From a virus (lineage: Duplodnaviria > Heunggongvirae > Uroviricota > Caudoviricetes), in the IMG/VR virus record IMGVR_UViG_648276647_000004, positions 1 to 43,461 of that record: 43,461 bases of DNA; one strand, given 5' to 3'. The first letter of the stretch is position 1. Each line of letters opens with the position of its first letter. Below, piece by piece: positions 18,001 through 21,000 of the stretch. Made by a program: the position numbers.

Positions 18001-21000
18001 GGGAGGTGAATAATGCCTCCATCATTACGAAAAGCCGTTGTTGCGGCTATTGGTGGCGGGGCTATTGCTATAGCATCTGTGTTAATCACTGGCCCAAGTG
18101 GTAACGATGGTCTGGAAGGCGTCAGCTACATACCATATAAAGATATCGTTGGTGTATGGACTGTATGTTACGGGCATACCGGAAAAGACATTATGCTCGG
18201 TAAAACGTATACCGAAGCAGAATGCAAAGCCCTCCTGAATAAAGACCTTGCCACTGTCGCCAGACAAATTAACCCGTACATCAAAGTCGATATACCGGAA
18301 ATAACGCGCGGCGCTCTTTACTCGTTCGTTTACAACGTTGGTGCTGGAAATTTCAGAACATCGACGCTTCTTCGCAAAATAAACCAGGGCGATATCAAAG
18401 GCGCATGTGATCAGCTACGGCGCTGGACATACGCTGGCGGTAAGCAATGGAAAGGGCTGATGACTCGCCGTGAGATTGAGCGTGAAGTCTGTTTGTGGGG
18501 GCAACAATGAGTAGAGTAACCGCGATTATCTCCGCTCTGGTTATCTGCATCATCGTCTGCCTGTCATGGGCTGTTAATCATTACCGTGATAACGCCATGA
18601 CCTACAAAGAACAGCGCGATAAAGCCACATCCATCATCGCTGATATGCAGAAGCGTCAACGTGATGTAGCAGAACTCGACGCAAGATATACAAAGGAACT
18701 TGCTGATGCTAACGCGACTATCGAAAGTCTCCGTGCTGATGTTTCTGCTGGGCGTAAGCGCCTGCAAGTCGCCGCCACCTGTGCAAAGTCAACGACCGGA
18801 GCCAGCAGCATGGGCGATGGAGAAAGCCCAAGACTTACAGCAGATGCTGAACTCAATTATTACCGTCTCCGAAGTGGAATCGACAGGATAACCGCGCAGG
18901 TTAACTACTTGCAGGAATACATCAGGACGCAATGCCTTCGATGATAGCGATAATTTTACTCATCATCCTTCACATCTGGCTCTGTAGACAGGGTGGTGAT
19001 CACTTCTGGAGTGAATCCAGATTAAACATCTCATTGCTGATGCTTGAAGTTGAGCATCTGGCGCGCGGTAAGGGGCTGCGTTGAGATAAGAGCCAGTTCA
19101 TTACAAAGCCTATCTACGGGTGGGCTTGATAATGAAACCGGAATTTATTCTGGGCAACCAGTTACGGCAGTACAGCGAAACAACCCAAGCCAGTAAGTGG
19201 GGAAATAACACTGGCAGCCACTGAAAGATGAACCTCCTGCCTTATGGCAAAAAAGATTCTTTGTGGTGGCGGACTGATGGAAAGACATCCTAATTTCAGC
19301 CAAACATTGAAGGAGTTGTTATGTCAGCAGAAGGTTTCAATAACCCATCAAAATTCCGGGATGAGTGGGATAGCAGCGTAAAGAGTAAGTGATGCCATCA
19401 CAAAAGCCATTCCCTACAGAGTGGCTTTGATAATGGCTTATACCCTACACGGGATAACTTAACTGATATCCCAACAAGCGGATAAAGAGGTTCTCAATGT
19501 CCGACATCTACCAAATCATGTTAACCACCCAAACAGGCGAAACCTTTACGGGTAAGATGTCACGACGTCAGCGTGAGCTGGTTAATGGCTTTATGCAGCC
19601 GGCTACCGAGATGGGCGAGTAGAATAACTCCATTAGGAGAATGTGGAACCATTACACTTTGAGCCGTTAACTGATATTGATAAAGGTAAATAATATCGTG
19701 GTTAAGGCTTTCTAATAGCCAGCCATTTGCAAAATCACAGTTGCAGCAGCAGCGAAAGCTGCATATGAGTTATATTTAGACTGTAACCGCGCAGTTAAGA
19801 AAAATTCGTGAAGATCTACATTTTTTTGGGGATCATCAAATGTAATTGCTACAACGGTGCTTCTACCTGTTTTGACTTTGGCTGTTGCTGATTTGATCCA
19901 TAACCCAGCCGATAAAAAACCAAAGAAAATTGATAGTGTATGATGGTCAATTAACCAGTTTTTAATTAGTAATAAATCACTCATTTTCAATCCAATTGAG
20001 ACTTTGCCATGGCACTCACCGACAAACAAGAAATGTTCTGTCGCGAGTACCTCATCGATTTAAACGCCACACAAGCGGCTATTCGGGCGGGGTACAGCGC
20101 AAAGACAGCCAACCGTACTGCGTCCGAAAACATGTCAAAACCTGACATCAAGTTAAGAATCGCTGAACTGAAAGCGCAACGCAATGATCTTGTTGGTATT
20201 AATGCAGAATATGTACTTAATCGCCTTCTTGAAATCGACCAGATGGATGTGCTTGACATTCTCCTGCAAAACGGTGAGCTAAAACCCATTAAAGACTGGC
20301 CTAAGGTATGGCGCACAACGCTATCAGGAATGGATGTCGTGGAGATGGTATCCGCAGATAGCGCCGCACTTCTGAAGAAAATCAAATGGCCTGATAAGGT
20401 CAAAAACCTCGAACTTCTTGGTAAGCATGTTTCTGTTCAGGCATTTAAAGAGCAAACATCTACAGAAATAACTGGCGCTGATGGTGGACCTGTTCGTTAT
20501 GCCGATATGTCAGAAGAGTTACTTGAAGAGAAACTGAAGGAGCTTGGTAATGGCAGGCGCTCCAATCAGCTTGAATCGAAACGCTCAGATTTATGAGTTG
20601 CACAAAGAGCTGGCTATCCGCTCAGCAAGAAAAAACCTTCTCGATTTCACTTTGTACACTAATCCGCAATACGAAACAGGTTGGTTTAACGAGCTGCTTT
20701 GTGCTGAGCTAGATCACTTTCTGGATGAAGTTAAAGCCGGAAACATGCCCAGGCTAATGGTGTTTGCCCCTCCGCGCTCAGGAAAGAGTGAGTTGTGCTC
20801 TCGCCGCTTCCCAGCGTATGTGTTAGGACAGCATCCATCATGGAACATTATCTCGTGCTCATATTCTTCTGACCTGTCAGACCGAATGAGCCGTGACGTT
20901 AAACGCATTATCACCTCTGATAAGTACGCTGATGTTTTCCCTGACGTGAAAATACCTTCAGGACGCAGTTTGGCGGGAGGTATCAACAAAACCGAGCTAT

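What the first reader, a model, noticed from the sequence alone, without database searches (positions are those of the whole stretch)
19100..19984. AT-rich gap between lysis and terminase genes: imperfect direct repeats, RBS-preceded micro-ORFs and an antisense membrane-protein gene
Two related ~32-bp elements (19103-19134 and 19399-19434, both ending GGCTT(T)GATAATG) and three short ORFs with good Shine-Dalgarno sequences (30 aa at 19131, 23 aa at 19321, 41 aa at 19497) occupy about 700 bp with no large ORF. A minus-strand ~90-aa hydrophobic protein gene (19712-19984) abuts the terS start. This is the classic cargo slot of lambdoid phages, and none of it is explained by core phage functions.
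Basis: seen in the sequence. Interest (0 to 1): 0.45.

Follow-up and report, generated by a model that had tools for sequence, protein, structure and literature searches.

The report
Near-empty phage cargo slot with boundary hairpins
The gap between the lysis and terminase genes is the usual accessory-gene slot of lambda-like phages, here almost empty: two copies of a conserved RNA-type hairpin that marks cargo-gene ends, one conserved unannotated 23-residue micro-gene, one truncated gene remnant, and one opposite-strand small membrane-protein gene placed like P22's pid.

Summary
The features are real, but several need re-reading.

- **The two "direct repeats".** They are the 3' arms of two about 45-nt hairpins (19096-19137, 19393-19438). 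These belong to a family I found about 135 times in related phages, always in the sense of the late operon, with compensatory base changes and a strong G·U over A·C bias. In relatives the hairpin follows the stop codon of swappable cargo genes (Rha, KilA-N, GIY-YIG, Tad2-like, Gp49). No Rfam family matches.
- **The shared "ATG".** It is a stem base, and the 30-aa ORF starting there is not conserved.
- **The 23-aa ORF.** It belongs to a conserved family of 23-29 aa (motif GF(D/N)NPxKFR(D/E)E(W/L)D) found in at least 119 viral contigs. It often lies just before terS and is absent from protein databases.
- **The 41-aa ORF.** It is the N-terminal two-thirds of a 64-72 aa phage family, cut off by a stop at a conserved Trp codon.
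- **The minus-strand 90-aa gene.** It is a genuine two-helix membrane protein under purifying selection. It occupies the position of P22 pid and moves between prophages together with the first ~240 nt of terS, where its promoter probably lies.

Overall this is a new member of a known kind of locus. The function of the hairpin is not established.

The parts
18932..19084 (+). 50-aa ORF overlapping the end of Rz (Sf6 gene 65 / epsilon34 gp67 type). It is the left border of the gap, and its block ends in CATTACAAA, shared with hairpin 1.
   Evidence: phrog_11822, E 8.6e-38. Annotated as a hypothetical protein in relatives. The block 18901-19107 recurs in 31 loci.
19096..19137 (+). Hairpin 1. Lower stem (U)UCAUUA/UAAUGA(A), 2x2 internal loop CA/GA, 9-bp upper stem AAGCCUAUC/GGUGGGCUU, loop UACG. 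In relatives it lies directly 3' of slot-A cargo genes; here the slot is empty.
   Evidence: I4; -22.6 kcal/mol, z -4.7; 58.2 bits on +, 8.6 bits on -; covariation; stop-codon adjacency.
19132..19224 (+). 30-aa ORF starting at the AUG in the 3' arm of hairpin 1. Judged not to be a gene.
   Evidence: The same AUG opens ORFs of 3, 9, 21 or 30 aa in relatives, including frameshifted versions. No family hit. No SD.
19138..19289 (+). Conserved non-coding spacer (core 19164-19289). It follows the rha stop codon in P22 and follows hairpin 1 elsewhere.
   Evidence: 93-100% identical in about 60 loci. 35 variable columns show no 3-base periodicity (13/12/10). Unannotated in HK544.
19321..19392 (+). 23-aa micro-ORF MSAEGFNNPSKFRDEWDSSVKSK with SD GAAGGAG at 19309-19315. 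Its stop lies 3 nt before the CAUCA of hairpin 2. Member of a conserved unannotated micro-protein family.
   Evidence: tblastn finds full-length hits at 52-61% identity in E. coli, Enterobacter, Proteus and Cronobacter phages. Stand-alone 23-codon ORFs with SD occur in E212 and in Proteus phages Brookers and Pm34. 32 variants of 23-29 aa occur in at least 119 IMG/VR contigs. Not in the 15-billion-protein collection.
19393..19438 (+). Hairpin 2. Same architecture: lower stem GCCAU(C)A/UAAUGGC, CA/GA internal loop, 10-bp upper stem AAAGCCAUUC/GAGUGGCUUU, loop CCUACA. It is homologous to the P22/epsilon34 hairpin that follows the spacer.
   Evidence: I1; -22.4 kcal/mol, z -5.3; 53.1 bits; P22-type variants with compensatory changes.
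19439..19496 (+). Portable leader block with two tandem TTATCC-N8-GGATAA-type inverted repeats (19439-19460, 19467-19489), ending in the SD of the next gene. It precedes the DUF2560 gene in P22-like phages and the orf41 family here and in Enterobacter phage ENT1.
   Evidence: The block 19419-19486 is retained in 62 loci. ENT1 sequence. Folds. Function not tested.
19497..19622 (+). 41-aa ORF: the truncated N-terminal part of a 64-72 aa phage protein family (phrog_6581). The stop codon TAG replaces a conserved Trp codon, and homology to full-length genes ends at 19620.
   Evidence: phrog_6581 positions 1-41 of 66, E 2.5e-16. Full-length homologues in CobraSix, Erwinia phage 59, ENT47670 and ENT1. 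L088 keeps the in-frame C-terminal part after the same stop, and L003 has an indel. The exact sequence is found on 307 contigs.
19712..19984 (-). 90-aa two-helix membrane protein gene on the strand opposite to the late operon: a moron in the position of P22 pid.
   Evidence: phrog_14357, full length, E 2.9e-62. PGAP annotates it as a 'hypothetical protein'. A family of about 30 representatives shares the motif LQSKWNSxAAxxAA. 32 synonymous versus 18 non-synonymous codon changes against a 72%-identical homologue. AF2 model pLDDT 86, helical hairpin. Same slot and opposite strand in Klebsiella prophages. GC 0.37-0.40.
20009..20250 (-). The first ~240 nt of terS, read on the minus strand: the inferred promoter and 5' leader of the 90-aa gene. 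The terS gene itself is 20009-20596 on the + strand.
   Evidence: The block 19561-20247 moved as one unit into Klebsiella prophages whose real terS lies 1.3 kb away. P22 pid is flanked by the homologous terS 5' remnant (window 20010-20259). The pid transcription start site is 174 nt upstream of its ATG (PMC8835761). No strong sigma-70 consensus was found, so this part is inference.

Best explanation
The interval 19085-20008 is the variable accessory ('moron') region that lambdoid phages carry between the lysis cassette and the small-terminase gene. Here it is nearly empty and partly decayed. Its backbone is punctuated by two copies of a ~45-nt strand-specific hairpin: 5-8 bp lower stem CAUUA/UAAUG, invariant CA/GA internal loop, 9-10 bp variable upper stem. 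In relatives this hairpin sits immediately after the stop codon of interchangeable cargo genes. The hairpin most likely acts in the late mRNA as a cistron-end element: a barrier to 3' exonucleases or an RNase III-type processing signal that insulates the cargo cistron from its neighbours. As a conserved patch next to variable DNA, it is also where homologous recombination swaps or deletes cargo. Both cargo positions are unfilled in this window. Slot A is empty. Slot B holds only a 23-aa micro-gene, which belongs to a conserved family usually found just upstream of terS. Next come a portable leader block and a truncated 41-codon remnant of a small gene that in other phages is coupled to terS. 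Last is a genuine moron: a 90-aa two-helix inner-membrane protein encoded against the late operon, in the position of P22 pid. It is probably transcribed in the lysogen from a weak promoter inside the first ~240 nt of terS, and probably acts at the envelope (exclusion or host modulation). Shown: the anatomy, conservation, covariation, strand bias, truncation, selection on the 90-aa gene, and its co-transfer with the terS 5' end. Inferred: the RNA-level role of the hairpin, expression of the micro-ORF, and the promoter and function of the 90-aa protein.
For: Slot and mosaic: searches show recurrent breakpoints at 18937/45, 19098-19107, 19289/94, 19393-19419, 19486, 19620 and 20009. Cargo genes appear. 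Hairpin: inverted repeats; stable folds; 135 sense-strand copies against only weak antisense scores; 90-93% of cells paired with 10-13 pairs changed on both sides, against 27-51% paired in the slid controls; 144 G·U against 22 A·C cells; a stop codon 1 nt before CAUUA in 46 copies; a divergent Cronobacter copy that keeps the architecture and the CA/GA loop. Micro-ORF. Truncated orf41. 90-aa gene. pid parallel and terS 5' co-transfer. pid is highly expressed in BTP1 lysogens (PMC7067206).
Against: There are no expression or RNA-end data for any element here. The hairpin has no U-tract, so it is not an intrinsic terminator, and nothing tested shows cleavage or stabilisation. Top-strand ssDNA would give the same G·T-tolerant covariation. 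The seed copies were partly picked with a filter that required upper-stem pairing. That inflates the percentage paired, though not the double-sided changes. No convincing sigma-70 promoter or terminator was found for the 90-aa gene, and a candidate -10 is not conserved in Klebsiella. Substitution patterns in the 23-aa ORF are only mildly enriched at third positions. The 90-aa family has no annotated relative or informative fold match.
Confidence: 0.7

Rival explanations
1. The hairpins work as DNA, not RNA. As top-strand ssDNA hairpins or cruciforms they would be recombination sites at which cargo cassettes are captured and exchanged. This would be an attC-like arrangement: an ORF followed by an imperfect palindrome with conserved outer boxes, unpaired bases and a variable, structure-conserving centre.
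For: Cargo ORFs end at the hairpin. The 9-nt CATTACAAA lies on both sides of ~700-nt cassettes. Hybrid hairpins (hairpin-1 core with hairpin-2 right flank) show that recombination between copies deleted the intervening DNA. Outer arms and the internal loop are conserved while the upper stem covaries. G·T pairs are also tolerated in ssDNA.
Against: Hairpin type follows the slot, not the cargo: every slot-A cargo is followed by type 1, and slot B by type 2/3. So the hairpin belongs to the backbone, unlike attC. No dedicated recombinase is associated with it. All copies are in the sense of a heavily transcribed operon. Ordinary homologous recombination in conserved flanks, the 'boundary sequence' model (PMC3233612), explains the exchange without a site-specific mechanism.
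Confidence: 0.15
2. The hairpin is a translational device. It sequesters an AUG (and a G-rich SD-like stretch) in its 3' arm. Ribosomes terminating at the cargo stop codon, 1 nt before the stem, would melt it and allow re-initiation, coupling downstream translation to cargo translation.
For: The AUG is nearly invariant in the 3' arm, even in the divergent Cronobacter copy (UGAUG). The stop codon lies at a fixed 1-nt distance in 46 copies. GGGUGG or GAGUGG lies 7-9 nt before the AUG.
Against: The ORF opened by that AUG is 3, 9, 21 or 30 codons long and is not conserved. CAU/AUG conservation is equally explained by pairing. Many copies (66 of 138) follow non-coding DNA rather than an ORF.
Confidence: 0.08
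3. One reading: two direct repeats plus three expressed micro-genes and the antisense gene together form a cargo unit of this prophage.
For: The ORFs exist, and two have good SD sequences. The slot is a cargo slot.
Against: The repeats are halves of backbone hairpins shared by hundreds of phages. The 30-aa ORF is not conserved. The 41-aa ORF is truncated at a conserved Trp codon. The pieces have independent distributions and breakpoints.
Confidence: 0.05
4. The region is a packaging (cos/pac) or terminase-binding site, and the repeats are terminase recognition elements.
For: It lies next to terS. There are repeated inverted motifs, including TTATCC-N8-GGATAA x2 just upstream.
Against: The same hairpins and leader block occur in phages with unrelated terminases and packaging modes: P22-type gp3, Terminase_2, DUF2280-type, HK97/HK022 cos phages and Stx phages. 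They are also separated from terS by variable DNA.
Confidence: 0.02

Closest known systems
P22 pid moron locus (Cenens et al. 2013, PMC3573128; PMC8835761)
   Same: A small ORF (86 vs 90 aa) encoded against the late operon in the Rz-terS accessory region. It lies immediately beside the 5' end of a Terminase_2-type terS sequence (24-37 nt between the two start codons). The first ~240-250 nt of terS stay attached to it.
   Different: The proteins are unrelated (no BLASTP alignment). Pid is soluble; this one has two hydrophobic helices. pid has a proven Rho-independent terminator and a mapped transcription start; here neither was found. In P22 the terS piece is a dead remnant, whereas here it is the working gene.
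Lambda-type morons such as bor (the DLP12 copy is borD)
   Same: An opposite-strand small envelope-protein gene between Rz and the packaging genes (one search shows borD in that place in DLP12).
   Different: Bor is a lipoprotein. There is no sequence relationship, and DLP12 lacks the hairpins.
Conserved 'boundary sequences' between phage modules (homologous-recombination model of mosaicism, as summarised in PMC3233612)
   Same: Short conserved patches at gene boundaries flank interchangeable DNA, and the breakpoints cluster there.
   Different: These patches are structured. They keep a hairpin through compensatory changes and show a strand bias. Homology-only linkers need neither property.
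Intercistronic processing or stabiliser hairpins (T7 RNase III sites such as R1.1; REP-type 3' stabilisers). The comparison rests on my own knowledge of those systems.
   Same: About 20 bp-equivalents of helix interrupted by a small internal loop some 10 bp below the terminal loop. They are placed between cistrons of a long phage transcript and have no U-tract.
   Different: No sequence similarity, no cleavage data, and the lower stem is short (5-8 bp).
Integron attC sites
   Same: An imperfect palindrome at the 3' end of cassette ORFs with conserved outer arms, unpaired bases and a variable centre.
   Different: No integron integrase, and the hairpin type goes with the slot rather than the cassette. 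The sequences are unrelated.

Membership tests
Lambdoid moron (autonomous accessory unit, e.g. pid, bor) | Sits where related phages have nothing or a different insert | tested here: met
   The 90-aa gene is absent from the phage collection and from most relatives. It is present in some E. coli and Klebsiella prophages in the same interval.
Lambdoid moron (autonomous accessory unit, e.g. pid, bor) | Own promoter | tested here: inconclusive
   No sigma-70 consensus match of 9/12 or better on the minus strand. About 240 nt upstream travel with the gene. The candidate TTGCGC-N17-TTAACT is not conserved.
Lambdoid moron (autonomous accessory unit, e.g. pid, bor) | Own terminator | tested here: not met
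   No intrinsic-terminator-like site was found downstream of the 90-aa stop (19621-19711, minus strand).
Lambdoid moron (autonomous accessory unit, e.g. pid, bor) | Base composition differs from its neighbours | tested here: met
   GC 0.37-0.40 against 0.45-0.52.
Lambdoid moron (autonomous accessory unit, e.g. pid, bor) | Expressed from the repressed prophage | not testable with these tools
   Only the analogy to pid in BTP1 lysogens is available (PMC7067206).
Pid protein family | Sequence similarity to P22 Pid | tested here: not met
   BLASTP finds no alignment at E <= 100.
phrog_14357 (90-aa protein) | Full-length profile match | tested here: met
   Positions 1-90 of 90, E 2.9e-62. The family has no assigned function.
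phrog_6581 (41-aa ORF) | Full-length profile match (~66 aa) | tested here: not met
   Only profile positions 1-41 are matched. A stop lies at the conserved Trp, and the C-terminal part is lost. It is a truncated member.
Intrinsic (Rho-independent) terminator | GC-rich hairpin followed by a U-tract | tested here: not met
   The hairpins are followed by GAAACCGG or GGCUUAUACC. The scan reports none there. True terminators (for example AGCCTCGCATTTGCGGGGCTTTTTT) occur separately in relatives.
Any Rfam 15 family (for the hairpins and spacer) | Covariance-model score at the gathering threshold | tested here: not met
   Only two tRNAs pass in the window. Below-threshold hits are mir-458 on the minus strand (22 bits against 59) and a partial Proteo-phage-1 match (16.8 bits against 42).
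Structured RNA element (generic) | Base pairs kept through compensatory changes, in one strand | tested here: met
   10-13 of 18 pairs are changed on both sides. 90-93% of cells are paired against 27-51% in the slid controls. G·U 144 against A·C 22.
RNase III processing site | Cleavage by RNase III | not testable with these tools
   Only the geometry is compatible: a 10-bp upper stem, a 2x2 loop and a 5-8 bp lower stem.
Integron attC | Each cassette carries its own site, and an IntI integrase is present | tested here: not met
   Hairpin type follows the slot, not the cargo. No gene other than cargo, lysis and packaging genes lies in the Rz-terS interval of the annotated relatives. IntI was not searched for specifically.
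Known anti-phage defence proteins (PADLOC) / NCBIfam / Pfam for the small proteins | Profile match | tested here: not met
   No hits above noise. The 23-aa variants give only sub-threshold DUF2740 matches (13-14 bits against 27).

The most novel reading that the evidence does not exclude
The hairpins are the recombination or processing signals of a cassette system. The conserved, strand-specific hairpin with its invariant CA/GA loop would define the ends of exchangeable anti-defence or regulatory gene cassettes (Tad2-like, Gp49, Rha, KilA-N, GIY-YIG) in the late operon of lambdoid phages. It would be recognised by a specific host or phage factor, working like an integron attC but without an integrase. 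The 23-29-aa micro-protein next to terS would then be a previously unseen component of packaging or late-gene control.
Probability: 0.1. Interest if true: 0.8.

Novelty: new member of a known kind. Interest (0 to 1): 0.42.

Why it matters
This slot is where temperate enterobacterial phages keep anti-defence and host-modulating genes, and pieces of it occur in about half of complete E. coli genomes. A structured, covarying hairpin that marks the 3' ends of those genes gives a simple sequence handle for finding cargo. It also gives a testable hypothesis about how cargo cistrons are insulated and exchanged.

The 23-29-aa ORF family is invisible to gene callers, yet it is conserved beside terS genes of several terS types. 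The pid comparison shows that an opposite-strand moron can carry its control region inside a fragment of the terminase gene. That explains the otherwise odd terS remnant in P22.

Tried and rejected
- **Rfam.** Gathering and permissive E-value searches gave nothing relevant.
- **Protein profile libraries.** Pfam, NCBIfam, PADLOC and PHROGs gave the small proteins only function-less PHROG families.
- **tblastn of the 90-aa protein.** No match in the phage collection.
- **Promoter and terminator scans.** No convincing signals for the minus-strand gene.
- **E. coli K-12 DLP12.** I searched it for the hairpin in the hope of using published RNase III maps, but it has no copy.
- **Full-text search for the hairpin sequence.** Only unrelated eukaryotic primer matches.
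- **Known prophage sRNAs.** AgvB/AsxR lie 3' of PR', not in this slot, and the Pas sRNA preprint has no mention of terminase or lysis genes, so nothing places those sRNAs in this slot.
- **Spacer 19164-19289.** Tested for coding periodicity and for a supported consensus fold. There is no periodicity and no clear structure.
- **Micro-ORF as a relic of the P22 gp3 N-terminus.** No alignment.
- **Orf59c/hkbN as DUF2740.** No match.
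Full report
**Context.** The window is a complete lambdoid prophage. It has an integrase at 516-1586 (minus strand), a Q-type region, and tRNA-Asn and tRNA-Thr at 17523-17678. The holin is at 17705-18013, the lysozyme at 18013-18510 and Rz at 18495-18944. After the gap come a Terminase_2 terS (20009-20596), terL and a portal-sized ORF (22070-23605) in the position where E. coli relatives have a DUF1073 protein. The finding covers the 0.9 kb between a 50-aa ORF that overlaps the end of Rz (18932-19084, phrog_11822) and terS.

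**Observation.**
- The two "~32-bp direct repeats" are the right halves of two inverted repeats, at 19097-19136 and 19394-19437. These fold into hairpins of -22.6 and -22.4 kcal/mol, with z-scores of -4.7 and -5.3 against shuffles.
- The shared "GATAATG" is the 3' arm of the lower stem, so the ATG of the 30-aa ORF is a paired base and has no Shine-Dalgarno sequence.
- Only the right third of the gap is AT-rich. GC is 0.37-0.40 over the 90-aa gene and 0.44-0.47 elsewhere in the gap.

**The region is a mosaic accessory slot.**
- *Distribution.* Megablast finds pieces of 18900-20100 in 228 phage records and in 2759 of 5426 complete E. coli genomes. No record has more than 80% of it in one place.
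- *Breakpoints.* I fetched 80 viral contigs through their Rz gene and aligned the window to all loci. The breakpoints recur at 18937/18945 (Rz end), 19098-19107, 19134/19147, 19149-19164, 19289/19294, 19393-19419, 19486/19487, 19620 and 20008/20009, the last being exactly the terS ATG.
- *Slot A.* Between Rz (or the 50-aa ORF) and hairpin 1, relatives carry a terminator plus a cargo gene: Rha, KilA-N, a GIY-YIG nuclease, or a Tad2-like protein that phage Huey annotates as "anti-CRISPR". The window has nothing there. The 9-nt CATTACAAA that brackets those cassettes occurs once.
- *Slot B.* Between the two hairpin positions, relatives have either only a 152-212-nt non-coding spacer or that spacer plus a Gp49/Sf6-gene-66 family gene. 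The window type has the spacer plus a 100-nt segment holding the 23-aa ORF.

**The hairpins.**
- *Shared architecture.* All variants have a lower stem built on CAUUA/UAAUG, an invariant 2x2 internal loop (CA opposite GA), a 9-10 bp upper stem and a 3-6 nt loop.
- *Compensatory upper-stem changes.* The window has AAAGCCA/UGGCUUU, P22 has GAGGCCA/UGGCCUC, epsilon34 has GAGACCA/UGGUCUC, and many contigs have the G·U intermediate GAGGCCA/UGGUCUC. A copy upstream of the lysis genes in L059 and one in Cronobacter phage ENT47670 have quite different stems but keep the same architecture and CA/GA loop.
- *Pair counts, 25-variant alignment.* 93% of cells pair and 10 of 18 pairs change on both sides. 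Registers slid by 1-3 columns give 31-51% pairing.
- *Pair counts, model-derived alignment.* On 59 distinct sequences, 90% of cells pair and 13 pairs change on both sides. The upper helix is 96.9% paired.
- *Caveat on the seeds.* I picked them with a filter that required at least 7 upper-stem pairs, and the second alignment is fitted to the model. Both lean towards pairing but do not create double-sided changes.
- *Model search.* The covariance model finds exactly two copies in the window (58.2 and 53.1 bits; the antisense strand scores 8.6 and 12.3 bits). In the other loci it finds about 135 copies, all in the sense of the late operon.
- *Strand bias.* Pair cells include 144 G·U but only 22 A·C. 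The structure is therefore selected in the + strand, meaning the late mRNA or, less simply, top-strand ssDNA.
- *Relation to ORFs.* In 72 of 138 copies an ORF of at least 50 aa ends just upstream, and in 46 copies exactly 1 nt separates the stop codon from CAUUA. The 23-aa ORF of the window likewise ends 3 nt before the CAUCA of hairpin 2.
- *What they are not.* The hairpins lack a U-tract and are not called as terminators. Real terminators occur separately in relatives. No Rfam family matches, and I found no paper that contains the sequence.
- *Evidence of recombination.* Hybrid hairpins (type-1 core with type-2 right flank) in some contigs and in Stx phages show recombination between the two copies, with loss of the DNA between them.

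**Micro-ORFs.**
- *30-aa ORF (19132-19224).* Not a gene. The same AUG opens ORFs of 3, 9, 21 or 30 codons in relatives, including frameshifted forms.
- *23-aa ORF (19321-19392, SD GAAGGAG).* This was the surprise.
  - tblastn finds full-length matches at 52-61% identity in phages of E. coli, Enterobacter, Proteus and Cronobacter. In E212 and in Proteus phages Brookers and Pm34 these are stand-alone 23-codon ORFs with their own SD, in unrelated flanking DNA.
By my own arithmetic on an assumed collection size, about 0.02 hits would be expected by chance.
  - The hits give 32 peptide variants, all but one of 23-29 aa and ending 8-10 codons after the pattern (one lacks an upstream start codon).
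  - None of the four peptide variants I looked up (three 23-aa types) is in the 15-billion-protein collection.
  - The ORF is often the last one before terS, with a 5-nt gap or an overlap. The adjacent terS genes are of at least three different sequence types. In other contigs it lies right after Rz/Rz1.
  - Third-position enrichment of differences is only modest. I rate it a probable, not proven, micro-protein.
- *41-aa ORF (19497-19622).* A truncated gene.
  - It matches positions 1-41 of the 66-position phrog_6581. Full-length 64-72 aa homologues lie just upstream of the packaging genes in CobraSix, Erwinia phage 59, Cronobacter ENT47670 and Enterobacter ENT1.
  - The window's TAG replaces the conserved Trp codon, and DNA homology to ENT1 stops at 19620.
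  - One contig (L088) has the same stop but keeps the in-frame C-terminal part. One E. coli prophage (L003) has an indel.

**The 90-aa gene (19712-19984, minus strand).**
- *Evidence that it is a real gene.* It matches phrog_14357 over its full length (E 2.9e-62), and PGAP calls it a hypothetical protein. A profile search of 1.8 billion representatives finds about 30 relatives of 77-101 aa. They share W29 and the motif LQSKWNSxAAxxAA. Against a 72%-identical homologue it shows 32 synonymous and 18 non-synonymous codon differences.
- *Structure and family.* AlphaFold with 26 sequences gives a confident helical hairpin (pLDDT 86). No Pfam, NCBIfam or PADLOC family matches, and no informative fold match was found.
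- *Occurrence elsewhere.* In Klebsiella aerogenes prophages it again lies between the lysis and packaging genes, on the opposite strand.
- *Parallel with P22 pid.*
  - pid is an 86-aa ORF transcribed against the late operon between orf25 and orf80 (PMC3573128). It is highly expressed in BTP1 lysogens (PMC7067206).
  - In P22 the pid start codon lies 37 nt from a dead remnant of a Terminase_2 terS 5' end (MALTDKQEMFCHEYLIDLNATQAAI...). That remnant is homologous to window 20010-20259.
  - In the window, the 90-aa gene starts 24 nt from the intact terS.
  - In the Klebsiella prophages the block 19561-20247 (the 90-aa gene plus the first 239 nt of terS) was transferred as a unit, while the functional terS lies 1.3 kb away.
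  - The pid transcription start is 174 nt upstream of its ATG, that is, inside the terS remnant (PMC8835761).
  - The simplest reading is that the control region of these opposite-strand morons lies within the first ~240 nt of terS.
- *What I could not find.* No convincing sigma-70 promoter or terminator turned up. Pid and the 90-aa protein are unrelated.

**Mechanism and rivals.** I favour an RNA role for the hairpin at cistron ends, either as an exonuclease barrier or as an RNase III-type signal. The geometry resembles T7 intercistronic sites: a 10-bp upper stem, a small internal loop and a 5-8 bp lower stem. That comparison is from my own knowledge and was not tested. Recombination at these conserved patches would be a by-product. 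This fits the "boundary sequence" model (PMC3233612).
- *attC-like ssDNA site.* This is the most interesting rival. It is weakened because hairpin type follows the slot, not the cargo.
- *Translational coupling device.* It is weakened by the unconserved downstream ORF.
- *cos/pac role.* It is excluded by the spread across phages with unrelated terminases.

**Verdict.** This is an ordinary kind of locus, the lambdoid lysis-terS accessory slot, here in a mostly empty state. It has three pieces worth recording:
- an unannotated 23-29-aa ORF family, often placed just upstream of terS;
- a new cargo gene in a pid-like moron whose control region is embedded in terS.

Noticed in passing
window 19439-19489; L011 2440-2500: Two tandem inverted repeats of the form TTATCC-N8-GGATAA lie directly upstream of the SD of the next gene. 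They are conserved between this window, P22-like phages and Enterobacter phage ENT1. The four half-sites can pair in alternative ways (1:2 and 3:4, or 2:3), and a 9-codon ORF (MAYTLHGIT) starting in hairpin 2 runs across the first two. This could be an operator pair or a leader switch.
   Followed up: partly
L092 2065-2311 (P22 record 40744-40990): The P22 pid locus contains a decayed 5' fragment of a Terminase_2-type terS gene (MALTDKQEMFCHEYLIDLNATQAAI...) that P22 does not use. The mapped pid promoter and 5' UTR lie inside it.
   Followed up: yes
L088 ~2028-2230: A homologue of the 41-aa ORF has the same stop at the conserved Trp42 codon but keeps the in-frame C-terminal part (LYFSPDNVKRIQFTPELNDEA). 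This is either a fresh nonsense mutation or a read-through gene.
   Followed up: no
L004 1767-2267 (phage Huey CDS0064): The slot-A cargo gene annotated as an 'anti-CRISPR protein' matches the Pfam Tad2-like (Thoeris anti-defence 2) domain (E 1.7e-24). The second 'anti-CRISPR' (2502-2882) is a Gp49/Sf6-gene-66 family protein.
   Followed up: partly
L092 1650-1727 (P22 orf25); L093 1647-2003 (ST64T orf118): These annotated ORFs start in, or run through, the conserved hairpin and leader block. They are probably annotation artefacts (ST64T orf118 looks like an N-terminally over-extended DUF2560 gene).
   Followed up: partly
window 18932-19084: A 50-aa ORF with a hydrophobic N-terminus overlaps the Rz stop (Sf6 gp65 type, phrog_11822). 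Differences among close relatives are mostly non-synonymous (0-1 synonymous against 1-3 non-synonymous), so its coding status is uncertain.
   Followed up: partly
window 19184-19219: A weak partial match to the Rfam Proteo-phage-1 RNA (16.8 bits against a gathering score of 42). Only the ends of the model align, inside the conserved non-coding spacer.
   Followed up: no
L059 2482-2523: One hairpin copy with a strongly diverged but fully compensated upper stem (AAGCGUCUA/UGGGCGCUU) lies about 1 kb upstream of Rz. The element is therefore not confined to the Rz-terS interval.
   Followed up: no
window 17523-17678: tRNA-Asn(GTT) and tRNA-Thr(TGT) genes lie between the Q region and the holin gene. 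The E. coli ERP001 prophage (L002) has the same arrangement.
   Followed up: no
L097 2474-2833, L098 2792-2835; L049 4656-4713: Some hairpin copies directly follow the U-tract of a true intrinsic terminator (for example GGGGCTTTTTAT-TGTCATTA...), giving a terminator-plus-hairpin tandem.
   Followed up: no
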